Virus record (IMG/VR): IMGVR_UViG_3300045988_099363
DNA length: 33,706 nt
From: a virus
Direction: 5' to 3' (one strand)
Shown: positions 217 through 25,038 of the stretch, one piece after another
Position numbering within the stretch: the stretch's first letter is position 1
How the letters are laid out: the number at the start of each line of letters is the position of its first letter
Made by a program: the position numbers and the translations under genes
Notes under the pieces: model-generated
Seen by the model: only the letters and a program-made list of their open reading frames with translations
Told to the model about the DNA's origin: nothing
Database searches by the model: none

Positions 217-277
217 AATAATTAGTTCCAGTAAGTTCCATGAAAAACCGTTTAAGACGGTAGCAAATTGTACAAAA

Positions 278-321
278 ATAACTGCAAACTATTTAGGTGT
301 AGAGTAACAGTTATTTTTTTG
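278..321 (+). terminator. Hairpin (ataactg ... cagttat) followed by a T7 run; candidate intrinsic terminator about 100 nt downstream of the 188-216 promoter
   Basis: 7-bp stem with a long loop, then ttttttt at 314-320. Confidence 0.35.
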
Positions 322-342
322 TCATTAAATTTTAAAATATCC

Positions 343-382
343 GATAAAAATCGGACAAAAGTTACAAAATAAGTGGTATAAT
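343..382 (+). promoter_or_regulatory. Extended -10 promoter (TGgTATAAT at 374-382, weak -35 GGACAA) overlapped by a perfect palindrome TCCGAT-aaaa-ATCGGA (343-358), a candidate operator for middle-gene control
   Basis: Motifs read directly; the palindrome overlaps the -35 position. Confidence 0.5.
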
Positions 383-550
383 ACGGCTATGATGACTGCG
401 AATAAAATTTCAATCACACACATTAACACGTATTATCGCATGATTCATTGCAGGCACGCCCTGCGTACATAGATATGTGCGAGCTTAACCACACTAAAAG
501 AAAGCTAAGTTTATTGTGATTTTTGACTGCTAGGAAAGACTGGCAATTGA

Positions 551-622
551 TGAGAATTAGCTCAGTTGGTAGAGCGTCTGACTGTTAATCAGAAAGTCAC
601 AGGTTCGAGTCCTGTATTCTCA
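551..622 (+). tRNA. tRNA-Asn (anticodon GTT)
   Basis: Cloverleaf: acceptor tgagaat/attctca, D arm agctcagttggtagagc, anticodon loop ctGTTaa, T arm caggttcgagtcctg. Confidence 0.85.
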
Positions 623-823
623 GTTATTAACCTTGGTCGGATTAACGGTTAATTAAAACTGCTTACGAAAATTATCAGTTGACAAGCATGGTTGCAATAT
701 GGATTACACTTCTTGATAGCCGTTCGATTCGGAGGTTGTCAGTAGGTTAGGGAACTCTGAAGGTAACTAATCTAAAGAAAGGTAGAGATTGCCTTCGGTT
801 ATTCTCTTTTTTACGAGGTTAAA

Positions 824-1792
824 ATGAAATTATCGTTAGATGAAAAGAAAATAAGAAAAGGGAAACCAGTCGGATTGCCTTACCAAGGTAGCAAGAAAAA
901 AATTAGTAAAAAGATTGTTGAAATCATTAAGCAAAACTTTGGAACTGATAAACCGATATATGACATTTTTGGCGGTGGCGGTGCAATCACTGCCGAATGC
1001 ATTTTAAACGGCTTAGATGTCCGTTATAACGACTTGGACGAAGCTATTACTGATATGTTCCAAAAAGTTTTAAACCAAGATAGGTAATGGATTAAGACGT
1101 TAATCGTTAGTCGTGAGGAATTTTTTGAAATTAAGGCGAAGGAAAACAAGACGACCGATGACTCTTTGAAATTGCTGATTAATTCTTTTGGTAACAACAG
1201 AAAACATTATCTATATAGCACAGAATGGTCAGATATGAAGTATAACCTAGCGATTGAGGTTATTACTAAGCACGATGTGTTTAGCGGGTATAAACAAACT
1301 GAAACGTATAAAAACGCTAGACGACCATACGATAAAGGTAAACCTGAAAAAAACAATGTACTACAACAGTTACAACGGTTACAACGGTTACAACAGTTAC
1401 AACAGTTAGAACAGTTACAACAGTTAGAACGGGTAGAACGGTTAGGACGGTTTGAACAGTTAGAACGGTTAGGACGGTTTGAACAGTTAGAACGGTTAGA
1501 AGCAACAAATTTAAGTTACAATTGCTTTTCGGATGTTAAAGATAGTATTTTGTATCTTTAACATCCATATCAAGGAACACATAATTATTATAAGCTTGAA
1601 TTTGATAGCTTGAAGTTTTATGACTGGGCGTATGAAATGGCTAAAAATAATATCGTGATAATTTCGAGTTATTCAATTTCAGATGATAGATTTGAAGAAG
1701 TTTATAGCTTTGATAAAGCTAGAAGCACGCTTCAAGGTGGGATCGGAAACGGTAAATGTGAAAAATTATTTATGGTTAAGACATAATATTAG
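824..1792 (+). pseudogene. Dam-family N6-adenine DNA methyltransferase, disrupted. One reading frame carries Dam motifs (PYQGSK, FGGGGAI, LINSFGNN) but is broken by in-frame TAA stops at 1085-1087 and 1559-1561 and carries a 9-bp repeat insertion. The DPPY catalytic motif is replaced by *HPY
   Basis: Same-frame ORF pieces 824-1084, 1088-1558 and 1562-1792; motif comparison with E. coli Dam is from memory. Confidence 0.6.
1357..1500. repeat. 9-bp minisatellite, about 15-16 tandem copies (consensus ASAACRGTT), with a 27-bp higher-order duplication; encodes (QQL/ERL)n in the MTase frame
   Basis: acaacagtt acaacggtt acaacggtt ... agaacggtt aggacggtt tgaacagtt read directly. Confidence 0.9.
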
Positions 1793-1876
1793 GTATGACT
1801 TTTTATTTAAATTAAGTATTAAAAAATATCCCGATTTGACTTTTATTTTTCAAACTGATATAATCATTTTATAAAT

Positions 1877-1898
1877 CGTTAGTTTTTACTAACGTTTT
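1877..1898 (+). terminator. Intrinsic terminator: cgttagt-tttt-actaacg followed by TTTT
   Basis: Perfect 7-bp stem, 4-nt loop, T run. Confidence 0.7.
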
Positions 1899-1928
1899 CC
1901 ACGTTCTCAATTTTGAGAGCGTGGTTAA

Positions 1929-2002
1929 ATATGGTTAGTTTAACAGGCTAGTACGCCCACAATCTAGGTGGAAAGTCGCAGGTTCAAGCCCTGCACCATA
2001 TT
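1929..2002 (+). tRNA. tRNA-Arg (anticodon TCT)-like gene with non-canonical features (A at position 33, one D-stem mismatch, 4-bp anticodon stem); possibly a degenerate tRNA
   Basis: Perfect 7-bp acceptor stem atatggt/accatat, perfect T arm gcagg-ttcaagc-cctgc, anticodon loop aaTCTag. Confidence 0.5.
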
Positions 2003-2085
2003 TCTTTGGTTAAGATAGTGAGGCCATCGGTTTGAACCCGAGAAAAGATGTATCATGTAGAGATACACGACTATCATAATACGCA

Positions 2086-2110
2086 CCGCCTATGTTTTTA
2101 ATGTAGGCGG
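2086..2110. other. Inverted repeat ccgccta-(11 nt)-taggcgg between the middle region and terS; candidate packaging (cos/pac) or regulatory structure
   Basis: 7-bp perfect stem read directly; no strong T run follows. Confidence 0.3.
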
Positions 2111-2124
2111 TTCATATTCAAAAC

Positions 2125-2156
2125 AAGGACAGAAATGTCTTTTTTTGTGCTATAAT
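2125..2156 (+). promoter_or_regulatory. Extended -10 promoter (TGcTATAAT at 2148-2156) upstream of terS
   Basis: Motif read directly; no clear -35. Confidence 0.4.
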
Positions 2157-2178
2157 TATTTTAAAAAGGAGTATTAAA

Positions 2179-2649
2179 ATGGCTAAAAAAAGAAAAGTAC
2201 ATCAAAATTCATTGAAGAACTTAAAAAACATTGGCGACCGTTCCCCTGAAGAAAAGTTCGCCATCCAGTCCGCAGGAGGTAAAAAGTCAGCTGAAAATCG
2301 CAGAAAGAAAGCAAACTTAAGAAAAGCGCTTGACCTCGTTCTTATCAATCAGGCACCAACGCCTAAAATGAAGAAGACACTCAAAGAACTGGGCTATGAA
2401 GAAACAACAGAGATGGCGGTCATGCTATCTCTTATCCGTAAAGCCTTAACTGGGGATGTTGGCGCTATCCGTTTAATCAGTGAAATATCACTTACTAATG
2501 CAGAAATTCAAGAACGTAGACAAATTGCCGAAGTCGAAAATATCGAAATCAAAAACAAATTACTACTCGCAAGCGACACAACAGGAAAAGAAGTTAAGCA
2601 AGACGAACGCTTACAAGATATTGCTAAGAGCCTGAGTGAGTTGCTATGA
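2179..2649 (+). CDS. terS: Terminase small subunit
   Basis: 156-aa basic N-terminus, strong RBS aaaggag, ATGA overlap with the large terminase gene; first gene of the late module. Confidence 0.7.
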   Translation: MAKKRKVHQNSLKNLKNIGDRSPEEKFAIQSAGGKKSAENRRKKANLRKALDLVLINQAPTPKMKKTLKELGYEETTEMAVMLSLIRKALTGDVGAIRLISEISLTNAEIQERRQIAEVENIEIKNKLLLASDTTGKEVKQDERLQDIAKSLSELL

Positions 2650-3884
2650 AGTTTACCACGAAACAACGAAAAATTATAAGAGAGCTAAACACTAAAAAAG
2701 ATTGGCATATACTCATAACGCATGGTGCTAAACGTAGTGGCAAGACTGTGCTGAACAATATGCTATTCATTAAAGAACTGGCAAAGGTTAAGGCGACTGC
2801 TGAAAGTTTGGGGATTGATATACCGCAGTATATTTTGGGTGGATTTACAATGTCAACGCTCCGACAAAACATTATTTCAGAACTTGAAAACATGGGCATC
2901 AAGATTAAGACTGACCGCTACAATAATTTCATGCTTATGGGTGTTTATGTCGTGCAAACCTCAACAGGCGATATAGGAGGAATCGGGCGCATAAGGGGGA
3001 TGACATCATTCGGGGCTTACGTAAATGAGGCCAGCTTATGCAATAGAGATGTGTTTGACGAAATAATCGCACGTTGTTCTGGTGCAGGTTCTCGTATCAT
3101 TTGTGATACCAACCCAGACAACCCAGAACATTGGTTATTAAAAGACTATATCAATAACGAATCAGACCCTCATATATTAAATTATCATTTCGAGTTAGAT
3201 GATAATGAGTTCCTAGACCCTGACTACAAGCGCAATATTAAATTATCAACCCCAAAAGGAATGTTTTATGACAGAGCTATCAAAGGCTTATGGGTATCTG
3301 GTCAAGGCACTATCTATTCAATGTTTGACAAATCCAAGATGTCGCTGTCTGAAGAACAAGCCTATGGGCAAACCTATGAGCGTTTCTTTGTTGGTGTTGA
3401 CTGGGGTTTTAACCACCCGACTGCTTTTACTGTTTGTGGATATAAGGACGGTGTTTACACACTCATAGAGGAACACTCAGGAAGTGGTAAGGCTATTAAG
3501 CATTGGGAAGAAGTAGCGCTTGATATTGAGAAACGCTTCGGAAGGGGCATACCTTTTTATTGTGACACAGCTAACAGCGAACACGTAAGTGACCTTATAA
3601 GCGTTGGAATTAACGCATTAGGTGCTAACAAGTCCGTGATGAATGGGATTGAATACCTCAGCAGTTTAATGCAGAATGGCAGGTTCTTTGTCAACTATGA
3701 TTCTTGTCCGCTTTTTAAAACTGAAATTTATAAGTACGTTTGGGAAGAAAAGACAGGACAACCTGTTAAATTAAACGATGACTGTATGGATTCATTAAGG
3801 TATGCCATTTATAACGATTACTTGCAACACGCAACCAAATCAGCAACTATTGAAGACTTTAAAGTCTTACGGAAATTTATGTGA
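2646..3884 (+). CDS. terL: Terminase large subunit (PBSX/SPP1-like ATPase and nuclease)
   Basis: 412 aa; P-loop-like HGAKRSGKT near the N-terminus; conserved position. Confidence 0.85.
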   Translation: MKFTTKQRKIIRELNTKKDWHILITHGAKRSGKTVLNNMLFIKELAKVKATAESLGIDIPQYILGGFTMSTLRQNIISELENMGIKIKTDRYNNFMLMGVYVVQTSTGDIGGIGRIRGMTSFGAYVNEASLCNRDVFDEIIARCSGAGSRIICDTNPDNPEHWLLKDYINNESDPHILNYHFELDDNEFLDPDYKRNIKLSTPKGMFYDRAIKGLWVSGQGTIYSMFDKSKMSLSEEQAYGQTYERFFVGVDWGFNHPTAFTVCGYKDGVYTLIEEHSGSGKAIKHWEEVALDIEKRFGRGIPFYCDTANSEHVSDLISVGINALGANKSVMNGIEYLSSLMQNGRFFVNYDSCPLFKTEIYKYVWEEKTGQPVKLNDDCMDSLRYAIYNDYLQHATKSATIEDFKVLRKFM

Positions 3885-3892
3885 GGAATGAA

Positions 3893-5386
3893 ATGACCGA
3901 TATTTTAAAAGTAAATGGATTCGAAACAGACACAGACATGATAAGTGGTAGTTTAACGAGTGAAAAACTTATCTTTGATGTACAGAGTAACATTCACTAT
4001 AAAGCTGATGGCATAGACGAGTTGTTAGGCGATATTAACACGGTATTTGAATTTATCAAACACCACGTTCAAAATCAGATTTTTAGGCTTTCTGTGCTTG
4101 ATGATTACTACAAAGGGCGCAACACAGCACTATTCACAGCAAACAGACGACTTACGGAAAACAAGTCTGACCACCGCATTGCCCACAATTTTGCGAAGAT
4201 TATCACGCAATTCAAGGTAGGTTATATCACAGGAAACCCTATCAAAATTACAGCTATTGATGATGACGTGACAGATAAAATCACGGAATTTAACGACCTG
4301 AACGAAGCTGATACCCTTAACACAGAGCTTATGCTTGATGTATCTAAATATGGGCGAGCCTATGAAATTCAGTACCGCAACAAAGACGATGAGGATATAA
4401 GCGTATTATCGAACGTTTTTGAAACATTTGTCATTTACGATACAGCCCTAGACCGTCAAGCACTTATGGGAGTTCGCTATGTAAAAGTTATCAAAGACAC
4501 AAAAGACTATTACAATGTGACTTTATATACTGATAAGCAAGTCATTCAAATTGACGAGGTAGACTTAACAGCTTCTGACTTTAAAAACAAATTTGAAAAC
4601 GCTGACTTCTCTAATCACTTTTATGGCGATGTACCAGTAATTGAGTACGCAAACAACCGTTTCCGCATGGGCGATTATGAAGACATGCTAAGTCTATTTG
4701 ACGCTTACGACCAAGCGACAAGCGACACAGCTAACCACTTGACTGATACGATTAACTCACTATTAGTTATTTCGGGCGACTTTAAAGTGGCAGGACTTAA
4801 AGCTGAGGATATGTCTAATCAAATCAAAAAATACAACTTATTAGGTTTGCAGAGTGGACGTGACTTATCAGGCAAACAGACTAGCGTAGATGCAAAGTAT
4901 ATTAGTCCTGAACTTAATGTCAGCGATGCAGAGCTTTACAAGGAACGTTTAAGAAAAGATATTTTCACACTTTCAAACGTACCAGACATGACAGACCAAA
5001 ATTTTAGTGGTAATTCAAGCGGGCAAGCTATGAAATACAAGCTATTTGGCTTTGAGCAGACTATTTCAGCGACTGAGCGAGTTTTCAAAAAGTCTTTGAT
5101 TAAACGATACAAATTACTTTTTTCTAAGTTGAAAACATTAAAAGAAAGTAAAGGACTTAATGAACTGTTAAAAGTTACGTTTATCCCTAACTTACCTAAG
5201 GCAGTTACTGAAGAACTTAAAATGCTTACGGATAGCGGAACACCTGTTTCGACACGTACTAAGCTAGGGCTAGTGTCATTTATTGATGATGCAGATGTTG
5301 AGCTTGATTTGATTAGTGAAGAAGAAAAAAGTACACAACCTGTACCGAACCAATACCCTGATAACTTTACAACTGAAAATGAATGA
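3893..5386 (+). CDS. Portal protein
   Basis: About 497 aa directly after terL. The ATG at 3893 with RBS gagga is preferred over the GTG at 3881 used in the ORF track. Confidence 0.8.
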   Translation: MTDILKVNGFETDTDMISGSLTSEKLIFDVQSNIHYKADGIDELLGDINTVFEFIKHHVQNQIFRLSVLDDYYKGRNTALFTANRRLTENKSDHRIAHNFAKIITQFKVGYITGNPIKITAIDDDVTDKITEFNDLNEADTLNTELMLDVSKYGRAYEIQYRNKDDEDISVLSNVFETFVIYDTALDRQALMGVRYVKVIKDTKDYYNVTLYTDKQVIQIDEVDLTASDFKNKFENADFSNHFYGDVPVIEYANNRFRMGDYEDMLSLFDAYDQATSDTANHLTDTINSLLVISGDFKVAGLKAEDMSNQIKKYNLLGLQSGRDLSGKQTSVDAKYISPELNVSDAELYKERLRKDIFTLSNVPDMTDQNFSGNSSGQAMKYKLFGFEQTISATERVFKKSLIKRYKLLFSKLKTLKESKGLNELLKVTFIPNLPKAVTEELKMLTDSGTPVSTRTKLGLVSFIDDADVELDLISEEEKSTQPVPNQYPDNFTTENE

Positions 5387-5394
5387 GGTGCTGA

Positions 5395-6282
5395 ATGGAA
5401 AGCTTCGAGTATTGGCGCAATCGTGAACATAAGACGATTGACAAGATAGAAAAAAACCAAGAAAAGTTTTTAAAAAGTATTTCAGATGAATATGACAAGG
5501 CGCTTGAAGATATTGAAAAAGAAATAAACAGGAACTTTTTAAAATATTCAAAAGACAACTTATTGACTATATCAGAGCTTATGAAAAAGGCTGATAAGTT
5601 TGATGTCGTAAAATTCAATGACAAGGTTAAGAAATATATCGAGCGTGGTGTATTTGACAAGTCCATGAATGACCTGAGCATTTACAACTTGAAGATGAGA
5701 GTTAGTCGACTAGAATTTATGAAAGCAAAGATTGAATTTGAAGTTGACAAGCTGACTAACCAATTAAAAAGCGAGTACGAGGAACAACTCAGAAAAGAAA
5801 CGATTGATGAGTATAAGCGACAATCAGGCATACTTGAACCGCATATCAATTATGGCGCTAATACGGTTGCGGTAATCGTCAATAGTAGCTTCTACAATGC
5901 TAATTTTTCACAAAGGCTATGGGGCAATGGAGAAAGTTTAAAATCAGTTATCAACACAACGGTCAACCGTTTAATTTTGCAAGGTGTACACCCTGACAAG
6001 ATGATAAGCGAGTTACGCAAGCTGTTTGGTGTTTCATATTCGGAAGCTAGGCGTGTGCTTATAACTGAAAGCGCTAGAGTACAAGGCGATGTACAAATTG
6101 ACAGCATAGAGCAGGCAGGCTTTAATTCTTATGTTTATATTGCAGAACGCAGGTCGTGCGTGATTTGTGGCAGTCTTAACGGAAAAGTCTTTCTAGTGAA
6201 AGATAAAGAGATTGGCTTGAATATGTACCCAATGCACCCAAATTGTAGGTGCCGAATAGCACCTTATGAAGATGAGAAATAG
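5395..6282 (+). CDS. Head morphogenesis protein (Mu F / SPP1 gp7-like minor head protein)
   Basis: 295 aa with a C-terminal Cys/His motif CVICGS...HPNCRCR typical of Mu F-like proteins; position after the portal gene. Confidence 0.7.
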   Translation: MESFEYWRNREHKTIDKIEKNQEKFLKSISDEYDKALEDIEKEINRNFLKYSKDNLLTISELMKKADKFDVVKFNDKVKKYIERGVFDKSMNDLSIYNLKMRVSRLEFMKAKIEFEVDKLTNQLKSEYEEQLRKETIDEYKRQSGILEPHINYGANTVAVIVNSSFYNANFSQRLWGNGESLKSVINTTVNRLILQGVHPDKMISELRKLFGVSYSEARRVLITESARVQGDVQIDSIEQAGFNSYVYIAERRSCVICGSLNGKVFLVKDKEIGLNMYPMHPNCRCRIAPYEDEK

Positions 6283-6284
6283 TC

Positions 6285-6312
6285 TTGACAATACGTCATA
6301 ATTTGGTATAAT
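6285..6312 (+). promoter_or_regulatory. Near-perfect sigma-70 promoter TTGACA-(16)-TGgTATAAT inside the late structural cluster
   Basis: ttgaca at 6285-6290, tataat at 6307-6312 with an upstream TG. Confidence 0.6.
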
Positions 6313-6319
6313 GAATTTG

Positions 6320-6421
6320 TGCTTGATACGCACAATCCTTTCTATCCATGTTTGTCATGTGGCTATCCTTTCAGAGTAAAAAAGCAATCGTTTTCCAATT
6401 TGACGGTTGCTTTTTTATTTT
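6320..6421 (+). ncRNA. Candidate small RNA of about 100 nt, bounded by the 6285-6312 promoter and an intrinsic terminator
   Basis: No ORF; internal hairpin gtgc-ttgatac-gcac; terminator stem gcaatcg/cggttgc plus T6. Confidence 0.3.
6384..6421 (+). terminator. Intrinsic terminator (7-bp stem with one G-U pair, T-rich tail ttttttatttt)
   Basis: Read directly. Confidence 0.55.
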
Positions 6422-6502
6422 ACTTTTGATATAATAAAAATGTAGACGATGTGATGATTGTTTGCCTCCTGTTGGTTTGGAAAAAGTCGCTTAAAATTTT
6501 AA

Positions 6503-6531
6503 GTGATTTTTTTTAATTTTCATGGTATAAT
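6503..6531 (+). promoter_or_regulatory. Extended -10 promoter (catGGTATAAT) about 150 nt upstream of the scaffold gene; the leader contains a small hairpin
   Basis: tataat at 6526-6531 with a TG at -15/-14. Confidence 0.4.
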
Positions 6532-6683
6532 AATTTTGTAACAAGCTTATCTCTTAAAGCTAAATAAATAAGAGGAAAAAATAAGCGTGTGTGAGTTGAA
6601 TGTTTGTGGTAATCGTTTTTGGGGAAACGTGAGAGGGGTTACCGCTTTATGGCTTTCATGGGCAAAAAAAGAGGAGTATTAAA

Positions 6684-7235
6684 ATGGCGGAAGATAACAC
6701 AACCGTAGGCGAACAAGCAATTGAAAGTGCAGAGGGTGGCGAAAAAGAAACGCTGACTTTTACGCAATCAGAACTTGACAGCTACACGGACAAGAAAATC
6801 AATAAGGCGCTTGAAACTAAAACAGTTAAAATGCTTGAAGAGTTTGAGCAAAAGCGCAAAGAAAGCGAAGATAAAGCCGTGAAACTCGCACAAATGAGCG
6901 AGAGTGAACGCCTTAATGCAAAGATTGCTGAACGTGAACTTGAAGTTGAAAAACGTGAAAAAGAAATCAAACTTCAAGAATACCGCTTACAAGCTGAATC
7001 TGAATTGTCTAACCTTGATTTGCCTAAGTCTTTAGTAAGTCTTGTATTGTCTAATGACGTTGAAACTACTCAAAGCAATATCACGGAGTTATCAACAGCT
7101 GTTGATAACATTGTGAATAGTCGCATTAAAGAGCTTGCACAACAGGACACACCTAAAGGCGCAAAAACAACTGTTTCAAGCTCATCAACTCAAAACGACC
7201 TCATGAAATTCGCTCATGAGGCGAGAATTATTTAA
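6684..7235 (+). CDS. Scaffolding protein
   Basis: 183 aa, acidic and helical (Glu/Lys-rich coiled-coil character), immediately upstream of the capsid gene. Its ribosome-binding and start sequence (ggagtattaaaATGgc) is identical to that of terS. Confidence 0.7.
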   Translation: MAEDNTTVGEQAIESAEGGEKETLTFTQSELDSYTDKKINKALETKTVKMLEEFEQKRKESEDKAVKLAQMSESERLNAKIAERELEVEKREKEIKLQEYRLQAESELSNLDLPKSLVSLVLSNDVETTQSNITELSTAVDNIVNSRIKELAQQDTPKGAKTTVSSSSTQNDLMKFAHEARII

Positions 7236-7246
7236 GGAGATTTAAA

Positions 7247-8245
7247 ATGGCACAAACATTTAAACCTGATAATGTAACGGTCTTACAAAACAAAAACGGA
7301 GAAATTCCAAGTGATACAACACTATTAATTCAACAAGCCGTTATCGCTAACTCTAAGGTTATGCAACTTGGTAAAGTTGAACCTATGGAAGGCTTGAAAA
7401 AAACTTTTGAAGTCTTTGTCAAAGGCGGGGGCGCTTACTGGATTAACGAAACTCAAAAAATCCCAACAGCTAAATCTGAATTTAAAACAATCACGATGGA
7501 AGCTAAAAAACTTGCTGTAATCTTACCAGTTTCAAATGAATACTTGACAATGAAAATGCCTGCTTTCTTTGAATTTATGAAAGATAAAATCGCAGAAGCC
7601 TTCTACAAGAAATTTGATGAAGCGGTAATTGTTGGTCATAACAACCCTTTCAAACAATCAATTGCACGTTCAATTGAAACAACTGGTAAAAACAAAACCG
7701 TTGCAATTTCTTATGATAGTATCCTTGGTCTTGAAGATGACCTCTATAAAGATGATATCGAAGCTAACGCTTTCATCTCTAAAGTTCAAAACCGCACAGA
7801 CTTACGTAACTCTGTTAAAACAATCAATGGCGTGTCTCAATCACTTTATGAACGAGCAACAAACACGATTGACGGAGTAACAACAGTTGACTTTAAGTCT
7901 GAAAACTTCCCTAAAGGCGCTTTGATTGCAGGTGACTTTGATAACTTGGTCTATGGTATTCCACAAGGTATGACATTCTCAGTATCTGATTCAGCGCAGT
8001 TGTCAACACTTTCAAATGAAGACGGTTCGCCTGTAAACTTGTTCGAACAAGATATGCAAGCGTTACGTGTGACAATGCACGTAGCTTGCATGATTATCAA
8101 AGACGAAGCATTCTCAGCGCTTAACTTGCCTAAAGATGAGAAACTATCAGAAACTATGCCTGGTCATGAAAAAGCTATTTCAACTGATAAAGATGCAGTT
8201 ACTAACTCAAAAACACCAACACCGCCTTCTGGACTTGGAGTCTAA
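7247..8245 (+). CDS. Major capsid protein
   Basis: 332 aa; position after the scaffold gene; strong RBS aaggag. Confidence 0.75.
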   Translation: MAQTFKPDNVTVLQNKNGEIPSDTTLLIQQAVIANSKVMQLGKVEPMEGLKKTFEVFVKGGGAYWINETQKIPTAKSEFKTITMEAKKLAVILPVSNEYLTMKMPAFFEFMKDKIAEAFYKKFDEAVIVGHNNPFKQSIARSIETTGKNKTVAISYDSILGLEDDLYKDDIEANAFISKVQNRTDLRNSVKTINGVSQSLYERATNTIDGVTTVDFKSENFPKGALIAGDFDNLVYGIPQGMTFSVSDSAQLSTLSNEDGSPVNLFEQDMQALRVTMHVACMIIKDEAFSALNLPKDEKLSETMPGHEKAISTDKDAVTNSKTPTPPSGLGV

Positions 8246-8284
8246 AAACTGAAAAAATAAAGTAAAAAGGAGGGGTATTGATAA

Positions 8285-8620
8285 ATGAGTGAAACAGAAA
8301 TTTTAAAAGAAGTCAAGACTTTAATAGGTATTAAAGACGAAGATGATAAACAAGACAGCGTGTTAAATGTTTTGATTAGCAACACGGCTTCACAATTTAA
8401 AATTATTCTCGGAGAAACTATCATACCTACTGAACTTTACTTCATCTGGTCTAATGTCGTAGTCTCTAGGTATAATCGTCTAGGTCAAGAAGGTATGGTT
8501 TCATATTCACAAGAGGGCGAGGGTTTTCGCTTTCAAACGAGCGACTTTGAACCGTATATGACCTTGATTGATAAGTTTACTGGGGATGATGGTCATGGTA
8601 AGGTGGTATTTTTTACATGA
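8285..8620 (+). CDS. Head-tail connector / DNA-packaging protein (gp6-like)
   Basis: 111 aa; position and size in a translationally coupled head-completion cluster. Confidence 0.5.
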   Translation: MSETEILKEVKTLIGIKDEDDKQDSVLNVLISNTASQFKIILGETIIPTELYFIWSNVVVSRYNRLGQEGMVSYSQEGEGFRFQTSDFEPYMTLIDKFTGDDGHGKVVFFT

Positions 8621-8877
8621 GATACACAACTACCGTTACCGTCTTAAACGAGAAAAAAGAATACGTTTCAGATATTCTAGCTAATGTCACAGATGTTGGT
8701 ACTGAAAAACAAAATCAAATTTTTGGTAACTTGAAAGAAGATAGAAAGTGCGTGAGAGTTCGCAACTTTGAACCTTTCAGAAGTGGTTATATGAAATTTG
8801 ACGGTAAGATGTACCGTATTTTGAAAAAGATGACAACCAGCAAGTCAGATGTTTTCTATATTGGGGAGTACCGATAA
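8617..8877 (+). CDS. Head closure / head-tail adaptor protein
   Basis: 86 aa, ATGA coupled. Confidence 0.45.
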   Translation: MRYTTTVTVLNEKKEYVSDILANVTDVGTEKQNQIFGNLKEDRKCVRVRNFEPFRSGYMKFDGKMYRILKKMTTSKSDVFYIGEYR

Positions 8878-9215
8878 TGTCTTATTCTTTCTCTGTATCT
8901 GGTGTAAAAGAGTTTCAGAAACTTTTAAACACAGAAGACAAAATAAACAAAGTAAAAGACGTTGTAAGAGTAAACACAGCTCAGTTGGCAAGAAATGCTA
9001 GTAAATTTGTACCAGTTGATACTGGTACGCTTGCAAGGTCTGGTAAGAGCGCTATATTAGACGGTGGAATGACTGGCGAGTATAGTTTTAGCACCAATTA
9101 TAGTGCTTATGTAGAATATGGTACACGGTTCATGTATGGCAGGTTCTATCTTAAAAGAGCATTTGACCTACAGACAGAAAAATTCTATAATGATGTTAAG
9201 GGGGCTTTGAATTGA
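8877..9215 (+). CDS. Head-tail joining protein (HK97 gp10-like)
   Basis: 112 aa, coupled, typical size and position. Confidence 0.5.
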   Translation: MSYSFSVSGVKEFQKLLNTEDKINKVKDVVRVNTAQLARNASKFVPVDTGTLARSGKSAILDGGMTGEYSFSTNYSAYVEYGTRFMYGRFYLKRAFDLQTEKFYNDVKGALN

Positions 9216-9592
9216 TAAATCCATATCAAGAAATGTTTGATAAAATAAAAGAGGTATCTGAAAGTTTAGGCTTTGATACTTACGATTATCTACCCGATGA
9301 GTTTACAAAGTACCCTTTTATATTTGTCGGAGAAATGTTTCAAAATGACGAGCTGACTAAGACTAAAAATCGAGGACAGTTAAATATTTTGTTACACGTT
9401 TTTGACCATCATGATAGACGAAAACAAGCTCAAGAAATGCTAAACAAATTGTTTGCTGAGGTATCTTATATCGGTAAAACAGAGCATTTCAAGTGGCACG
9501 AAAAACAATCAGAAATTCATATCATGTTTGACAACTCAGACAGTACACCATTAGTACATGGCGTGCTTGATATGGTTTTAGAGTTTGCATAA
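9212..9592 (+). CDS. Tail completion / tail terminator protein
   Basis: 126 aa; TTG start at 9212 with RBS aaggggg overlapping the upstream stop. Confidence 0.45.
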   Translation: MINPYQEMFDKIKEVSESLGFDTYDYLPDEFTKYPFIFVGEMFQNDELTKTKNRGQLNILLHVFDHHDRRKQAQEMLNKLFAEVSYIGKTEHFKWHEKQSEIHIMFDNSDSTPLVHGVLDMVLEFA

Positions 9593-9606
9593 AGGAGATT
9601 ATAATA

Positions 9607-10155
9607 ATGGCTGAAGTTATTGAGGGTAAACGAGTTATCCTATTGTTCCGTTTGGTAAGAGAACGTGCAGTAAAACCCGCAACACAGTTGGCATACGAAA
9701 TTAGCAATACGCTTAATCGTGAGCGAAATACTGAGGAACAAGAAACAAAAACGGGAATGATTAAATCTGTAGGCGCATCAAATGAAAGTATTGAATTTGA
9801 GTTCTTGCAGTCGTCAGCAGAAATTAACGAGATGTTAAACTATGCTTACGAAAACAACGAAGAAGTAGAGTTCTGGCGTGTGAACCTTGACAAAAAAGAT
9901 AAAACTGGTAAATATGATGCTTATACTGGTACTGGGTTACTTGCATCTTATCCATTATCCGCTGAGGTTGCTTCTAATGCAACTATCTCGACTACTTTGA
10001 ATATTCAAGGTGTTGTAGGTCGCATTAACGCTACAATCACAAGCGACCAACAAGAAACAGCGCAAAAATACTATGATACAGTTGCAGGTATTGCTGAAGC
10101 TACTAAAGTTAAAGCCTATGAACCTAAAGGGCAAGTTACTAGCACGGCAGTATAA
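9607..10155 (+). CDS. Major tail protein
   Basis: 182 aa, followed by a strong terminator, upstream of the chaperone and TMP genes. Confidence 0.7.
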   Translation: MAEVIEGKRVILLFRLVRERAVKPATQLAYEISNTLNRERNTEEQETKTGMIKSVGASNESIEFEFLQSSAEINEMLNYAYENNEEVEFWRVNLDKKDKTGKYDAYTGTGLLASYPLSAEVASNATISTTLNIQGVVGRINATITSDQQETAQKYYDTVAGIAEATKVKAYEPKGQVTSTAV

Positions 10156-10180
10156 CCTCAAAATAGCATTTTAAACCACC

Positions 10181-10218
10181 GCAAGGGCAAGCATTTGGTT
10201 GCTAGTCCTTGTTTTTTT
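10181..10218 (+). terminator. Intrinsic terminator after the major tail gene (caagg...ccttg stem, T7)
   Basis: Read directly. Confidence 0.55.
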
Positions 10219-10241
10219 AAAAATAGAAAAGAGAAATCAAA

Positions 10242-10637
10242 ATGGCAAAAGCAGTTAAAACAAAAGACGTTAAAGCAGTAATCGCAATCGATGAAACAAA
10301 TTACAAACTAATTTTTGGTTTGAAGTTCCTCAAAGAAATTGGTATGCTACCGAACAGTTCAACAGATAACACGGTTGCATTTTCTGAAATGGTTGGCGGT
10401 ATTATGGAGTTTGACCCTTTTTCATTGCTTAAAGCCTTAAAAGCATCTCTTATCACTTATGACGACTTGGACGAGAAAGCGATTGAAGAATGGTTTGAAA
10501 CAACTGAACAAGTAGATTGGTTGTTTGAAAATTTTACGAAGTTCTTGGAATCAGCACCATTAACAGCCAAGAAAACGAAACAACTGATGGTGTACTTCAA
10601 AAAAGCGATGGCAGAAATGGAAATCCCAGAGGTATAA
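10242..10637 (+). CDS. Tail assembly chaperone (gpG-like)
   Basis: 131 aa acidic protein between the major tail and TMP genes. Confidence 0.7.
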   Translation: MAKAVKTKDVKAVIAIDETNYKLIFGLKFLKEIGMLPNSSTDNTVAFSEMVGGIMEFDPFSLLKALKASLITYDDLDEKAIEEWFETTEQVDWLFENFTKFLESAPLTAKKTKQLMVYFKKAMAEMEIPEV

Positions 10638-10981
10638 CTTTAACCTATCATCAAGCGGTCGTTAATTGTTTTAGGTATTATCCTACTTTGACAATTAAAG
10701 ATATTGACAGGATGACTATTGATGAGTATTATATCAGATTAGAAAGTCAACAGCTTGCTGAACTTGACAATGAGTATTTGGAATACGTAAATGCTTTAGC
10801 AGTCAGAGCTTATAAGGCTACAAACAAAGCCGGAGATAAGTACTTGTATAACAATGTTATTGATTTGTTTGACAGGAAAGATATCGAAAGAAAAATGACA
10901 AACAAGGGGGAAGAAAAGAAAAATGATAAAGCCATGCTTATGAGTATGGCTTTAAATAAAATGAAAGAAAAAGGGGACTAA
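10242..10981 (+). CDS. Tail assembly chaperone G-T fusion made by a programmed -1 frameshift at the slippery run C-AAA-AAA-G (about 10598-10606); the -1 frame stays open to 10981
   Basis: The -1 frame is open from upstream of the G stop through ORF 10688-10981; A6G slippery motif is 10 codons before the G stop; conserved G/GT arrangement. Confidence 0.6.
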
Positions 10982-10982
10982 T

Positions 10983-13900
10983 ATGTCACTATCTCAAATA
11001 ATAACAGCTAGATTACAAGCTAGAGATGAATCTTTTTCAAGCACCCTAAAAAAAGCAAGTAGCGCACTTTCCGAGTTTTCAAACAGCGGTAAGCAGATAG
11101 CGCAATCACAATCAGGAATCAATAGCACATTCAAGTCAATGGCAGGTGCTATTGGTCTTGTTAAGGTTGCAAGCGCTGGCATTTCAACTATCATGAATAA
11201 TATGGAGGGTGCAGTTTCACGTTTCGACATCTTGCGTAACTTCCCAAAAATCATGCAAAACATGAATGTTCCAATTGAAGACAGCACAAAGGCAATCAAT
11301 GAGCTTTCTGACGGTATAGACGGGTTACCAACCTCGCTTGATAGCATTGTAAAGACTACACAGCAACTTTTTCCAATCATGAACAACGATATCAAGAAGG
11401 CTACTAAAAGCTCGCTAGCGCTTAACAACGCATTTCTAGCGAGTGGCTCAACAAGTGCGGATGCTAGTCGTGGACTTATACAATATAGTCAGATGTTAGC
11501 AGTTGGAAAAGTTGATATGCAGGCATGGCGCACGCTTCAAGAAACAATGCCATATGCACTAAGCAAGACAGCTAAAGCGCTTGGAATTACTAGCGGGAAC
11601 ACCTCAGAGCTATATCAAGAATTAAAATTTGGTGGCATTACACTTGAACAGCTTAATGATAAATTCATGGAGCTTAACGATGGTGTCGGTGGCTTCGCTG
11701 AGGTAGCAAAAACAGCAACTGGCGGTATTGGAACAGCTTTCGCTAACTTTGGAACACGTGTCAAAAAGGGGCTTGAAAAAGCCTTGGGCGAGTTTGATAA
11801 CACAGCTAAGCAATTGACTGGTTTAGATATTGCAACTATTATTTCAAACGCAGGTACTAAAGCATCAAAAGCGATTGAAGGAAGCGCTAAAAAGATAACT
11901 GGCTTTATTAACAATAATAAAGAAGTGATTAAATCTTTCTTTGACTTTATAAAAACAAAGTTTGAACAAGCTAAAACATTGCTTACACCGTATGTTGAAG
12001 CTTTTAAAGCAGGTTTCAAAGAAATAATACCACCAGTTAAAGAGGCGGTAGATGCAGTTATCACAAGCCTTGGTTTACTCAGAATACAACTTGACGCATC
12101 TGGAAGCGTTGATAAATTTAAGTCAGGTATCACAGTTGCAACTGATGCCATTAAAACATTCGCAAACTTTGTACGTGATAATTCTGATAAAGTAGCTTAT
12201 TTAATTGAACAATTGCCTAAACTTTTGGCAGGGTATATGGCGTTTAAAAAGATAACTGAAATCAGTAAAAGCATTGCAGGTTTTTCAGCTAACGTTTTAA
12301 ATACGTCTTCTAAAATAAATGACTTTGTAAAAAAAGCTAACACTTTCACAATTGACAACATGAAAAAAGGTCTTGATATTATAAGTCCTAAATTGACAAC
12401 GGTTGGCAATGGATTTAAATCACTAGGGAGTGCAATTTCACACCCTAAAACTACATTGATTGGTTTTGGGGAAACACTATCTGAGTTCTCTTTGAACGGT
12501 CTTAGTGCAAGTGGTATAGTTGCTAAAATGTCAAGCGCTTTTAAAGTCGGGTTTGTCAACGCTATGTCAATAGCAGGAGGAGCGGTTAAAGGCTTTACAG
12601 CTACATTAATGGCTAACCCAATTGGGCTAATTTTAGCAGGTATCACAGCATCGGTTGCGGTGTTTGCATTGTCTTGGAAAGGTAACTTTGGTAACGTTCA
12701 GGGAGTTACTAAGACGGTATTAAGCAACCTTGGCAATACGTTTAAATCAATTGGAAGTGAATTAGGTAAGTTAGCAGATAGCATTAGTCCAAGTATCAAA
12801 AAATATTTGATAATGGAAAATGTCGCAAAGGCATTTGGAGCTAGTTTGCTAGCATCTCTTACTCCAATCGGTCTAGTGATTGATGCTTTTAGAGTTATTA
12901 TCATGACGATTACTGGGGTTATCAACTCATTTAAACTGGCATACTTACAAGTCAAACGGTTCTTTTCAGTAGGTAGCGAACGCAAGAAACTTACTGATGA
13001 GATTGAAGCAGTTGAAAAGAAACTTAAAGGTACTTACGATGGACTAGCTGAAAACTCAGCTACAAAAGCCATTTGGTCTGGTTTTAGTGAAATCGGCAAA
13101 AAGGGTGTAAAAACCGCATCTGATTATAAAAACATGGCTGATTCTATCATTTCAGACAACCAAAAAATTGCTGAAAGTAGTCAACAAACAGGTCAGAAAA
13201 TCTCTGAATCTGGTTCTAAAGTTTCGGAAGCATTCAACGTTGATGGTGCAAGTGAAAGAATTAAAACACAATCAGAAGCACAATTAGAAATCGTCAAACG
13301 TTTTGGCGAACAACGTGCTGAACTTCAATCTAAACAGTCAGAACTTGAAGCACAGCTTTCACAAGCGAAAGATAGCGAGAAACAAGGCGCTTTGATTAAA
13401 TATCATCAAGGTATGATGGAGCTTTACAACACAAATAACGCTGATGTTCTTACCCTCATGAAAAACAATAGCGAACAGCTTAAAGCTAATAAAGATATTG
13501 AGGGTAAAGAGCTTACAGAAGCCCAACGTAATGCAATGATAGAACAAAACAATGCTTTGCGTGAAGGACTCATGGAACAACAACAAATTGTCGTAGATTC
13601 ATCACTTGCTAAAATTGCAAGCGGTAAAAAGCTATCACAAACTGAACAGGCAATGGTACAAAGTAACTTAATTGCTTTGTATACAAATGAAAAAGAACTT
13701 ATCAGTTCAAACGAAGCACAGATAGCTGAACTCAGAAAAGTGGCAGGCGATAAGACAAACGAAATCGCAGCAGCGAACGCACAAGCTAAGCTAGACCAGT
13801 TACTCGCAAGCAATGAAACAGAGCGGGCAAAAATGACTGAAAATCAACAAGCTATCTTCCAGATTTTGACTACAACAGGTCAATTAAATACGCAAAAAGT

Positions 13901-24070: not shown

Positions 24071-25027
24071 TTATTTTTCAAGTTTCACATCAGCAATTTC
24101 TTTCATTTGAGTAAGTAACTCATTCAATTTTAGAGAATTTTCAGGTGTTTTTTCATAAGTCACCGTCATGGTAATCTTTGTAAGTCCTTGGACTTCAAGT
24201 ATTTTCTTTTCTAATACACTTTGTTTGAGTTCTTCCTCCTCACGTTGCTTATGCTCTAATTCACGTTGTTTTAGTTCCTCAGCTTGTTTTGCTAAACGTT
24301 CTTCATTTTCACGCATGATTAATTTTTGACGTTCTAATTCACGTTGTTCGTCTGCTTTACGTTGTTTCTCTTTTTCAATTCGTTCGGCAATTTCTGCTTC
24401 AAGTTGAGAATAATCAAAGTCGATTTTTTCGTAAACATCGGTAGCGGGCATACCATCTTCAAACATGGCGACATATTTAGCGAAAGATAACTCTAGGCTG
24501 ATAGCCTTATTTTTTATATTTTCAATATCGGCATTTTTTCGGTCTTTGTCAGCTTGCAATTTTTTCAGTAATTCAGTAAGTTTTTTGTCGGTTTTGAGTT
24601 TTTTCGTGTTTTTAAAAATTTCATCATCAACATCTTTTAACTCAATATTCAATGAAAGATTTTCAATTAAGTTTACAACACGACTTTCCCATTCTGTGCG
24701 TTCTTTTAAATCACGTTCTTTTTTTGTTTCATCAAGATTTTCAAAGAATTTTTCATATGAACTTTTAATTTCATCTCTGATTTTTTTGTATTCATTGTTT
24801 TCTTCTTCAACTAAATCAAGTGCTTTTTGGCGATTTTTAGTAATTTCTGTACTGATTGCATTAATTAAATTATTGGCGGTAGTTTTTTCTTTTTTAGCAA
24901 ACTTAAAATCATCATCAGTTACAATGACAATACTCTCAATCTTTTTAGCGTGTTCCTTTGCCTTTTCGATTGTTAAGCGAACGGTATCATTTTTAATAAT
25001 TTCAGTTGTTTTAGTTGTGTTTGTCAT
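24071..25027 (-). CDS. Glu/Lys-rich coiled-coil protein (318 aa), possibly recombination-associated
   Basis: Highly charged heptad-like sequence; sits upstream of the annealing-protein gene. Confidence 0.5.
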   Translation of the reverse strand: MTNTTKTTEIIKNDTVRLTIEKAKEHAKKIESIVIVTDDDFKFAKKEKTTANNLINAISTEITKNRQKALDLVEEENNEYKKIRDEIKSSYEKFFENLDETKKERDLKERTEWESRVVNLIENLSLNIELKDVDDEIFKNTKKLKTDKKLTELLKKLQADKDRKNADIENIKNKAISLELSFAKYVAMFEDGMPATDVYEKIDFDYSQLEAEIAERIEKEKQRKADEQRELERQKLIMRENEERLAKQAEELKQRELEHKQREEEELKQSVLEKKILEVQGLTKITMTVTYEKTPENSLKLNELLTQMKEIADVKLEK

Positions 25028-25038
25028 GTTTTTTCTCC

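What the first reader, a model, noticed from the sequence alone, without database searches (positions are those of the whole stretch)
6285..6421. Consensus promoter plus intrinsic terminator about 100 nt apart inside the late structural operon: candidate phage sRNA
A textbook TTGACA-16-TGgTATAAT promoter sits straight after the MuF-like gene. About 100 nt later comes a hairpin plus T-run terminator, with no ORF between. A second extended -10 promoter with a structured leader follows before the scaffold gene. This could be a small RNA made independently of late-gene control, or an attenuator setting the capsid:portal stoichiometry.
Basis: inference. Interest (0 to 1): 0.55.

Follow-up and report, generated by a model that had tools for sequence, protein, structure and literature searches.

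The report
Tandem small-RNA genes in phage head operon
Between the minor-head (MuF) gene and the scaffold gene of an uncultured gut phage of lactic-acid bacteria lie two back-to-back promoter-to-terminator units that most likely make two small non-coding RNAs, one more example of viruses carrying RNA regulators; expression has not been tested.

Summary
A perfect TTGACA-16-TGgTATAAT promoter (6285-6312) lies 3 nt after the MuF stop codon. A hairpin plus U-run terminator (6378-6416) follows about 100 nt downstream.

A second promoter (TGaTATAAT, 6427-6435) and a second terminator (6481-6514) define a second RNA of about 73 nt. A third extended -10 promoter (6523-6531) then drives a structured 146-nt leader for the scaffold gene.

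- **Conservation:** in relatives with 79-92% identical MuF, the gap is 92-94% identical in DNA, against 83-89% (MuF) and 88-93% (scaffold) for the flanking genes.
- **Promoter:** the hexamers never vary, while the spacer does.
- **Structure:** stems change only in pair-preserving ways, three of them on both sides.
- **Coding:** indels and stop codons break every ORF on both strands.
- **Strand:** G·U pairs make the structures specific to the + strand.

No Rfam family matches. The cassette is absent from more distant relatives, which have small ORFs, toxin domains or only a terminator at this junction.

I read this as a clade-specific tandem small-RNA insert whose terminators also close the packaging operon. 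sRNA1 displays two single-stranded CCUUUC motifs complementary to ribosome-binding sites. Candidate phage targets (the DUF1351 and RecT start regions) are only weakly supported. It is a new member of a known kind.

The parts
5395..6282 (+). MuF-like minor head protein gene (context; short form without the C-terminal toxin domain seen in relatives)
   Evidence: Pfam PF04233 E=1.5e-15 and phrog_115 E=6.5e-97. Relatives of 429-506 aa carry extra C-terminal domains.
6285..6312 (+). P1: full-consensus sigma-A promoter with extended -10 (TTGACA, 16 nt, TGgTATAAT); predicted start G6319
   Evidence: The hexamers and TG are invariant in 8 variants, while 7 of 16 spacer positions vary.
6319..6416 (+). 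sRNA1, about 98 nt (predicted): 5' stem-loop 6319-6333; single-stranded CCUUUC motif 1 at 6337-6342; weak stem-loop 6346-6362; single-stranded CCUUUC motif 2 at 6367-6372; terminator T1
   Evidence: All 7 variants fold the same way. 96.6% of cells are paired against 40-50% in slid controls, and 3 pairs change on both sides. The RNA folds at -28.9 kcal/mol, z = -5.26. There is no Rfam match.
6378..6416 (+). T1 intrinsic terminator: A6 run, stem 6384-6391/6403-6410, 11-nt loop, U6 run
   Evidence: Core stem -9.7 kcal/mol; whole element -21.1 on + RNA against -11.4 on - RNA. In helix 3, 9 pairs vary on one side and 2 on both sides.
6407..6435 (+). P2: TTGCTT (-35-like, inside the T1 3' arm), 17 nt, TGaTATAAT; predicted start G6442
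   Evidence: The -10 is TATAAT or TACAAT in relatives.
6442..6514 (+). sRNA2, about 73 nt (predicted): 5' hairpin 6442-6465, linker containing CCUCC (6465-6469), terminator T2 (A5 6481-6485, stem 6486-6494/6499-6507, U8 6507-6514)
   Evidence: -24.2 kcal/mol, z = -6.22 on the + strand against -6.3 on the - strand. It is almost invariant in relatives, and ATG losses remove the + strand ORFs.
6523..6531 (+). P3: extended -10 promoter TGgTATAAT (its -35 region lies in the T2 3' arm and U-run); predicted start G6538
   Evidence: invariant in relatives.
6538..6683 (+). Structured 146-nt leader of the scaffold gene: hairpin 6606-6645, ribosome-binding site AGAGGAG 6670-6676
   Evidence: Hairpin -18.9 kcal/mol, z = -4.95. 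Three independent one-sided, pair-compatible changes occur in relatives. The 31-aa upstream ORF is broken by indels in relatives.
6684..7235 (+). Scaffold protein gene (context), followed by the major capsid gene 7247-8245
   Evidence: PF14265 and phrog_172; PF05065.
25018..25029 (-). Candidate (weak) sRNA1 target: start-codon region of the early DUF1351 gene, ACAUGACAAACA, perfectly complementary to sRNA1 6349-6360
   Evidence: 9 of 1000 shuffles reach 12 nt; 2.3% of genomic windows do. Relatives differ only by wobble-compatible changes, but one abundant protein variant implies a mismatch.

Best explanation
The 401-nt gap between the MuF-like gene and the scaffold gene is a clade-specific insert of non-coding RNA genes.

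A constitutive host sigma-A promoter (P1) makes sRNA1, about 98 nt, ending at the intrinsic terminator T1. A second promoter (P2), built into the 3' side of T1, makes sRNA2, about 73 nt, ending at T2. A third promoter (P3), built into the 3' side of T2, restarts transcription through a structured leader into the scaffold and capsid genes.

Shown by sequence and comparison: the promoters, both terminators, the RNA folds, the strand, the lack of coding capacity, and purifying selection on the RNA bodies.

Inferred: sRNA1 acts in trans by base pairing. It presents two single-stranded CCUUUC motifs, complementary to GAAAGG-type ribosome-binding sites. From memory, UCCUUUCUA equals the last 9 nt of the 16S rRNA 3' tail of low-GC Gram-positives. 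It also has a CAUG-containing loop. Together these would occlude translation-initiation regions of phage early mRNAs (best candidates: the DUF1351 and RecT genes of the recombination module) and/or host mRNAs. sRNA2, with a CCUCC linker, would work likewise on unknown targets. As a side function, T1 and T2 end the low-copy terminase-portal-MuF transcript, and P3 sets the higher level of scaffold and capsid.

The confidence of 0.55 is for the whole statement. I put the existence of real small-RNA genes at about 0.75, a trans-acting pairing mechanism at about 0.35-0.4, and DUF1351/RecT as true targets at about 0.15.
For: - **Promoter:** 4 perfect promoters in the window against 0.07 expected. 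The P1 hexamers and TG are invariant in 8 variants while 7 of 16 spacer positions and the discriminator vary. By my arithmetic, the chance that all 7 variable sites fall in the spacer is C(16,7)/C(28,7), about 0.01.
- **Terminators:** T1 and T2 are hairpins plus U-runs with z-scores of -7.15 and -6.22.
- **Structure:** 96.6% of cells pair against 40-50% in slid controls. Double changes occur in the 5' stem-loop (G-C to A-U in L092) and in T1 (C-G to U-A in L088).
- **Conservation:** the gap is 92-94% identical, against 83-89% for MuF and 88-93% for scaffold DNA.
- **Non-coding:** no ORF is conserved on either strand.
- **Strand:** + strand RNA folds at -24.2 and -21.1 kcal/mol, against -6.3 and -11.4 for the - strand.
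- **Common geometry:** all three promoters share TGnTATAAT-N6-G.
- **Insert-like distribution:** the cassette is absent from distant relatives and the nearest isolates. These carry small ORFs, toxin domains, a Prp protease gene, a terminator followed by a leader, or simply a short gap at the same junction.
- **Target hints:** a 12-nt perfect complement to the DUF1351 start region. All four substitutions there in L249 and L251 are wobble-compatible. An 11-nt complement to the RecT start region occurs in L249 and L251.
- **Literature:** C- or CU-rich single-stranded seeds that block ribosome-binding sites are the usual mode of Firmicutes sRNAs (PMC8216469, PMC5499838).
Against: - No expression data exist. 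Start sites, 3' ends and termination efficiency are all predictions.
- T2 has an A/U-rich stem (core -7.3 kcal/mol) and shows no covariation, because it is invariant.
- Only 7-8 variants were available and they are closely related, so the covariation counts are small.
- Target evidence is weak. 2.3% of random 58-nt windows of this genome reach a 12-nt complement to some start region.
- The DUF1351 site has a mismatch in an abundant variant (MTK).
- The RecT site is lost in the window phage itself.
- The Ant and cro-like genes with complementary start regions are missing from relatives that keep sRNA1.
- sRNA2 has no complement of 8 nt or more to any phage start region.
- Energy-based duplex scoring gave nothing above shuffled controls.
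Confidence: 0.55

Rival explanations
1. Pure transcriptional punctuation. T1 and T2 terminate the terminase-portal-MuF transcript, and the promoters, above all P3, re-initiate at a higher rate for scaffold and capsid. The short RNAs are by-products with no function of their own.
For: Distant relatives and Enterococcus phages also place an intrinsic terminator right after MuF (or after small inserted ORFs), followed by a conserved leader before the scaffold gene. Scaffold and capsid proteins are needed in far larger numbers than portal and MuF (general knowledge). P3 and its leader are invariant.
Against: One terminator and one promoter would suffice. P1 sits upstream of T1, so it cannot serve the scaffold gene unless T1 leaks. 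The sequence between P1 and T1, and between P2 and T2, is the most conserved part of the gap. It is nearly invariant even in L088, where MuF DNA is 76% identical. The 5' stem-loop of sRNA1 is kept by a compensatory change. By-product RNAs would not be constrained in this way.
Confidence: 0.22
2. Antitermination switch, working like the lambda PR'-6S RNA-tR' module. P1 and P2 fire constitutively but stop at T1 and T2 early in infection. A phage factor (protein or RNA element) later makes RNA polymerase read through into scaffold, capsid and tail genes.
For: The anatomy matches: a strong constitutive promoter, a short terminated transcript, and structural genes directly downstream. There are two terminators in series. 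The transcript sequences are conserved and could be loading sites.
Against: P3 lies downstream of both terminators with no canonical terminator before the scaffold gene, so scaffold expression does not need read-through. The module sits in the middle of the morphogenesis genes, not ahead of them; terS has its own extended -10 promoter. I saw no alternative antiterminator pairing with the T1 5' arm. No Q-like or other antiterminator family appeared among the 36 proteins scanned, though many small ORFs were not scanned.
Confidence: 0.1
3. Protein decoy or sponge RNA. The repeated single-stranded CCUUUC motifs (and CCUCC in sRNA2) bind and titrate a host or phage RNA-binding protein or the ribosome, rather than pairing with specific mRNAs.
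For: Two copies of the same short motif are displayed in single-stranded regions flanking a hairpin, and they are invariant in all variants. No convincing mRNA target was found in the phage.
Against: From memory, no pyrimidine-motif RNA-binding regulator is established for Lactobacillales, and these bacteria lack Hfq and CsrA. The motif is exactly the complement of the ribosome-binding-site core, which pairing explains more simply.
Confidence: 0.08
4. The region encodes a small protein or a type I toxin-antitoxin pair. Candidates are the 20-aa minus-strand ORF behind GAAAGGA-N7-AUG, or the hydrophobic 21-aa + strand ORF in sRNA2.
For: The antisense of sRNA1 reads like a good translation-initiation region. 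The sRNA2 ORF VMIVCLLLVWKK... is hydrophobic.
Against: The minus-strand ORF acquires a stop codon in L084 and is absent as an ORF of 12 aa or more in L085 and L086. + strand ORFs are shifted by a 1-nt indel or lose their ATG. No ribosome-binding site precedes the + strand ORFs, and no minus-strand promoter is evident. The G·U pairs make the structures specific to the + strand.
Confidence: 0.03

Closest known systems
Phage- and prophage-encoded trans-acting small RNAs (for example svsR of a lambdoid prophage, PMC12803456; the EHEC prophage sRNA of PMC13502914; sRNAs of lytic Pseudomonas phages, PMC4933390 and PMC8244752)
   Same: A short non-coding transcript with its own host-type promoter and intrinsic terminator, carried by a phage genome and conserved within a phage clade.
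   Different: It has no sequence or Rfam relationship to any of them. The host is a low-GC Gram-positive bacterium without Hfq. There are two units in tandem, inside the head-morphogenesis genes. Nothing is known about expression.
Firmicutes sRNAs that block ribosome-binding sites with C- or CU-rich single-stranded motifs (RoxS/RsaE, RsaA, SprX; PMC8216469, PMC5499838, PMC4005690)
   Same: The architecture matches: a 5' hairpin, repeated pyrimidine-rich motifs in unpaired regions that are complementary to the ribosome-binding sequence, and a terminator hairpin.
   Different: The motif is CCUUUC rather than CCCC or UCCC. It is not a member of these families, since no Rfam hit reaches threshold. 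No target has been verified.
Morons of lambdoid phages (promoter-gene-terminator units inserted between conserved late genes; named from memory, Juhala et al. 2000)
   Same: An autonomous promoter-to-terminator unit wedged between two conserved structural genes. It is absent from relatives, which carry other cargo at the same junction.
   Different: The cargo is RNA, not protein. The phage has no integrase or repressor that I could find, so expression from a lysogen, the usual rationale for morons, may not apply.
Lambda PR'-6S RNA-tR' late control region (from memory)
   Same: A constitutive strong promoter, a short terminated transcript, and structural genes downstream.
   Different: An independent promoter (P3) follows the terminators. 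The position is mid-operon. No Q-like factor was identified.

Membership tests
Sigma-70/sigma-A promoter with extended -10 | -35 TTGACA and -10 TATAAT hexamers 16-18 nt apart, with TG one base upstream of the -10 | tested here: met
   12 of 12 hexamer positions plus TG at 6285-6312. 4 perfect sites in the window against 0.07 expected.
Sigma-70/sigma-A promoter with extended -10 | Selection on the hexamers rather than on the spacer | tested here: met
   0 of 12 hexamer positions vary, against 7 of 16 spacer positions, in 7-8 variants.
Sigma-70/sigma-A promoter with extended -10 | Initiates transcription in vivo or in vitro | not testable with these tools
   No transcript data are available.
Intrinsic (Rho-independent) terminator | Stable hairpin immediately followed by a U-run on the transcribed strand | tested here: met
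   T1 has a -9.7 kcal/mol core plus U6. T2 has a -7.3 kcal/mol core plus U8.
Intrinsic (Rho-independent) terminator | Stem maintained by compensatory or compatible substitutions | tested here: met
   T1: 9 pairs vary on one side and 2 on both sides, 96.3% paired. T2 is invariant, so it gives no information.
Trans-acting base-pairing sRNA | Independent non-coding transcription unit (own promoter and terminator, no conserved ORF) | tested here: met
   (sequence-level evidence only).
Trans-acting base-pairing sRNA | Conserved single-stranded seed | tested here: met
   The CCUUUC motifs at 6337-6342 and 6367-6372 are invariant and unpaired in all 7 predicted folds.
Trans-acting base-pairing sRNA | Conserved complementarity to a target mRNA | tested here: inconclusive
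   There is a 12-nt match to the DUF1351 start region (p about 0.01-0.02). It is wobble-compatible in L249 and L251, but a mismatch is implied in P0121. The RecT match is present in relatives and lost in the window.
Any curated Rfam family (including RsaE/RoxS, Streptococcus sRNAs, riboswitches, ctRNAs) | Covariance-model score at or above the family's gathering threshold | tested here: not met
   Only tRNA hits elsewhere in the window. The best hits in the gap score 20.5 bits or less, against thresholds of 33-440.
Type I toxin-antitoxin locus | Conserved small hydrophobic toxin ORF overlapped by an antisense RNA | tested here: not met
   No ORF is conserved in relatives, and the minus-strand peptide is hydrophilic.
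Moron (autonomous insert between conserved late genes) | Own promoter and terminator; present in one clade and absent at the same junction in relatives | tested here: met
   Covariance model R1 finds no copy in 85 related loci. The junction holds other cargo, or only a terminator or a short gap, in the relatives.
Lambda-type Q antitermination module | Terminated leader transcript is the only route into the late genes, with an antiterminator gene present | tested here: not met
   P3 lies downstream of T1 and T2. No antiterminator family appears among the 36 proteins scanned. Small ORFs were not all scanned.

The most novel reading that the evidence does not exclude
sRNA1 mimics the 3' tail of 16S rRNA. 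From memory, UCCUUUCUA equals the last 9 nt of the low-GC Gram-positive 16S tail, and a second CCUUUC copy follows. Made in very large amounts from a consensus promoter on a replicating phage genome, it would act as a general competitor for strong, extended ribosome-binding sites (UAGAAAGGA-type). This would shift translation from one class of host and early-phage mRNAs to the late phage mRNAs, whose sites are AGGAG- or GGAGG-centred. sRNA2 (CCUCC) would cover the other half of the anti-ribosome-binding sequence.
Probability: 0.08. Interest if true: 0.8.

Novelty: new member of a known kind. Interest (0 to 1): 0.4.

Why it matters
Few small RNAs are known from phages of Gram-positive bacteria, and almost none from uncultured gut phages. 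Gene callers leave such gaps blank.

This is a clean, comparatively supported case of two RNA genes in tandem. They occupy the same 'cargo slot' (the MuF-scaffold junction) that relatives use for toxin domains and small proteins. This suggests the slot can carry RNA as well as protein accessories.

If the RNAs repress early recombination genes or host mRNAs by covering ribosome-binding sites, they would be a simple dosage-driven timer in a phage that seems to rely on host sigma-A promoters throughout.

The case is directly testable, because exact 5' and 3' ends and seed motifs are predicted. However, it extends a known theme rather than opening a new one.

Tried and rejected
- **Rfam:** a search at gathering thresholds and at E up to 10 found nothing. 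The weak SpF25/ohsC/ctRNA hits only align the terminator.
- **DNA similarity:** the gap, and the first 25 kb of the window (1-25000), have no match among 50,697 phage records.
- **Exact-motif scans:** IMG/VR gave 0 hits. JGI metagenomes gave 1 truncated relative, L092. Species-representative genomes gave 0 hits.
- **Degenerate two-motif pattern:** it returned only scattered matches, in IMG/VR contigs and in bacterial and archaeal genomes of unrelated phyla, which I take as chance hits.
- **Covariance model R1:** no homologue in 80 distant IMG/VR loci, two Enterococcus phage loci, or three loci from two relatives with about 40% identical MuF; no second copy in the window.
- **Energy-based duplex search:** sRNA1 and sRNA2 against all phage start regions scored no better than shuffled sRNAs.
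- **Ant and cro-like genes as targets:** 10-nt and 8+6-nt matches exist, but these genes are absent from relatives that keep sRNA1, so I rejected them as conserved targets.
- **sRNA1 terminator loop pairing with the sRNA2 linker:** an 8-nt match in the window does not co-vary in relatives (read).
- **Pairing of either sRNA with the scaffold leader:** no complement longer than 6 nt.
- **Coding or type I toxin readings:** rejected.
- **Replication origin or packaging site:** no iterons or direct repeats lie in the gap.
- **CRISPR-repeat mimic:** considered from memory of Enterococcus and Streptococcus repeat sequences. I saw no convincing similarity, but did not test it with a tool.

Full report
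**Context**

The window is a complete, circularly assembled phage genome of about 33.65 kb. Bases 1-55 repeat at 33652-33706, and G+C is 35%. It comes from human gut metagenomes. The whole window equals ENA ERZ28569907 scaffold_1420, and the identical MuF protein is indexed in 59 blocks of the collection, on contigs that never exceed 50 kb.

- **+ strand, 1-19759:** a tRNA-Asn gene, then terminase, SPP1-type portal, MuF-like minor head protein (5395-6282), DUF4355 scaffold protein (6684-7235), HK97-fold major capsid protein, and connector, tail and lysis genes.
- **- strand, 19881-33123:** early genes for a helicase, RecT, a DUF1351 protein, a cro-like DUF739 protein, a BRO/KilAC anti-repressor and methyltransferases. 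I found no integrase or repressor.
- **Nearest cultured relatives:** Enterococcus and Lactococcus garvieae siphophages, with portal 46-50%, endolysin 55-60% and baseplate protein 32-43% identical. One relative sits in a metagenome bin labelled Lactococcus cremoris. The host is therefore some member of the Lactobacillales and is not resolved further.

- **P1:** TTGACA (6285-6290), a 16-nt spacer ending in TG, and TATAAT (6307-6312), starting 3 nt after the MuF stop codon.
- **Not chance:** perfect consensus promoters are strongly enriched, with 4 in the window against 0.07 expected. The other three sit ahead of the tRNA region and of early genes.
- **T1:** A6 run, an 8-bp stem (6384-6391/6403-6410), an 11-nt loop and a U6 run. 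The pattern scan missed it only because of its loop-size limit. It folds at -21.1 kcal/mol (z = -7.15).

- **P2:** the 3' arm and U-run of T1 double as the -35 region and spacer of a second extended -10 promoter, TGaTATAAT at 6427-6435.
- **sRNA2:** about 73 nt, with a 5' hairpin (6442-6465, -8.3 kcal/mol), a linker containing CCUCC, and a second hairpin plus U8 terminator, T2 (6481-6514).
- **P3:** the 3' side of T2 in turn carries TGgTATAAT (6523-6531). Its 146-nt leader contains a strong hairpin (6606-6645, -18.9 kcal/mol, z = -4.95) and ends in the scaffold ribosome-binding site.
- **Shared geometry:** all three promoters have TGnTATAAT-N6-G.

**Comparative evidence**

I recovered seven relatives whose MuF proteins are 79-92% identical (L084-L089), plus L092 from a motif scan.

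- **Conservation:** gap DNA is 92-94% identical to the window, against 83-89% for the MuF gene and 88-93% for the scaffold gene.
- **Promoter:** the P1 hexamers and TG never change, whereas 7 of 16 spacer positions and most discriminator positions do.
- **Fold:** all seven sRNA1 variants fold identically into a 5' stem-loop, an unpaired CCUUUC, a weak stem-loop, a second unpaired CCUUUC, and the terminator.
- **Pair counts:** for that structure, 96.6% of cells are standard pairs, against 40-50% when partners are slid. Three pairs change on both sides, including G-C to A-U in the 5' stem-loop of L092 and C-G to U-A in T1 of L088. Nine T1 pairs change compatibly on one side.
- **Indels:** these fall in loops and linkers.
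- **Coding:** every ORF on either strand is broken in some relative by a frameshift, a lost ATG or a stop codon. This includes the one minus-strand ORF with a good ribosome-binding site.
- **Strand:** because of G·U pairs, the structures exist only in + strand RNA (-24.2 against -6.3 kcal/mol for sRNA2; -21.1 against -11.4 for T1).

Together these results show selection for + strand, non-coding RNA elements. The selection acts on the RNA bodies, not only on the promoter and terminator.

**Distribution**

The cassette is restricted to this clade.

- No Rfam family matches.
- No DNA match exists in phage records.
- A covariance model of sRNA1 finds nothing in 80 distant IMG/VR relatives, two Enterococcus phage loci, or three loci from two relatives with about 40% identical MuF.
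- At the same junction those phages carry 86-376 nt gaps, small ORFs, MuF C-terminal toxin domains or a Prp protease gene. In most of those I read, an intrinsic terminator comes next, followed by a conserved leader before the scaffold gene. Lactococcus phage PLg-TB25 has only an 83-nt gap.

The MuF-scaffold junction is therefore a variable cargo slot with an ancestral terminator. Here the cargo is RNA.

**Mechanism**

I commit to two independently transcribed small RNAs. Their terminators also close the low-copy packaging and portal transcript, and P3 restarts transcription for the high-copy scaffold and capsid genes.

For sRNA1 the most likely action is base pairing with translation-initiation regions.

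- Its two invariant unpaired CCUUUC motifs are the complement of the ribosome-binding core GAAAGG.
- From memory, UCCUUUCUA equals the end of the 16S rRNA tail of low-GC Gram-positives.
- The antisense of the whole body reads like an ideal initiation region (GAAAGGA-N7-AUGACAAACAUGG).

Within the phage, the best site is a 12-nt perfect complement covering the start codon of the early DUF1351 gene. Nine of 1000 dinucleotide shuffles reach that length, but so do 2.3% of random genomic windows.

- **In favour:** in relatives the site differs at four positions, all wobble-compatible. The adjacent RecT start region offers an 11-nt perfect complement there.
- **Against:** an abundant DUF1351 variant implies a mismatch. 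The RecT match is lost in the window phage.
- **Excluded targets:** the Ant and cro-like genes with complementary start regions are absent from relatives that keep sRNA1.
- **sRNA2:** it has no phage candidate.

Targets are thus unresolved and may be host mRNAs.

**Rivals**

- **Pure punctuation:** this explains the terminators and P3, but not P1 upstream of T1 or the invariant RNA bodies.
- **Lambda-like antitermination:** this fits the promoter and short-transcript anatomy. However, P3 bypasses both terminators, the module is mid-operon, and no antiterminator was found.
- **Protein-decoy RNA:** cannot be excluded.
- **Coding or type I toxin-antitoxin readings:** rejected.

**Novelty and score**

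Phage-encoded small RNAs, and Firmicutes sRNAs that block ribosome-binding sites with pyrimidine-rich seeds, are both established (PMC12803456, PMC13502914, PMC8216469, PMC5499838). This is a new member of a known kind. Its added points of interest are the tandem, interlocked terminator-promoter design and its position in a structural-gene cargo slot of an uncultured gut phage. Without expression data I score interest at 0.4.

Noticed in passing
window 1836-2002: A near-consensus promoter (TTGACT-17-TGaTATAAT, 1836-1864) is followed by a tRNA-like element at 1929-2002. Rfam scores it just above threshold (33.9 bits against 29), but ARAGORN does not call it. It may be a degenerate or unusual tRNA, or a tRNA-like RNA, just upstream of the small terminase gene.
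   Followed up: no
window 27216-27293: On the + strand, inside the minus-strand early arm, lies a promoter-like site (TTATCA-18-TGtTATAAT). About 20 nt later comes a G+C-rich hairpin plus T-run (27267-27288). This could be a short RNA of about 40 nt, antisense to the gap between the anti-repressor gene and the 497-aa gene.
   Followed up: no
window 1335-1514: An array of at least 14 tandem 9-nt repeats (TACAACAGT / TAGAACGGT variants) lies inside ORF 1166-1561 (phrog_36652, unknown function). A second short 9-nt array (TTGGTTGTG, several copies) is at 23303-23347.
   Followed up: no
window 6606-6645; L089 2190-2230: The scaffold leader hairpin is kept in relatives through three independent one-sided, pair-compatible changes. 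L089 carries an 8-nt duplication just after it. The hairpin is followed by CUUUAU, not a real U-run. Its role (processing site, protein binding or weak attenuator) is unknown.
   Followed up: partly
L002, L004, L010, L011, L024, L040 (about 3860-4270 in each): Distant relatives (MuF about 35% identical) share a conserved leader of about 90 nt (TTGTCCAAACCGTGCTGA.GACGTTAAAAGTTGCATGAGTTCGGGGAGGTTGCCCGTCAAGCG...). It lies between a post-MuF terminator and the scaffold gene, whatever small ORFs are inserted upstream. It may be an unrecognised cis-regulatory RNA element of these phages. The Enterococcus phages B1578 and IME197 share a different conserved leader.
   Followed up: partly
window 21582-33190, minus strand: Several early promoters belong to one extended family (cTTGAC.-N17-TATAAT followed by ATAGATATAAGG-like sequence; for example 24039-24067, 25671-25698, 32067-32095, 33162-33190). 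This suggests a shared regulatory site just downstream of the -10.
   Followed up: no
window 374-382, 2148-2156: The extended -10 promoters ahead of tRNA-Asn and of the small terminase gene share a GGACA(A/G)AA element at the -35 position. This is a different class from P1. The morphogenesis genes seem to be driven by host-type promoters, and I found no sign of a phage sigma factor or RNA polymerase.
   Followed up: no
window 5395-6282 versus P0058, P0069, P0079, P0105: The MuF protein here is the short form (295 aa). Relatives of 429-506 aa carry extra C-terminal domains (PF18810, PF18812, PF21814, PF18451), presumably polymorphic toxin modules. The toxin-less clade is the one that carries the RNA cassette right after MuF.
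   Followed up: partly
window 1-55 and 33652-33706: A perfect 55-nt terminal direct repeat shows the contig is a circular (or circularly permuted) assembly of a complete genome of about 33.65 kb.
   Followed up: yes
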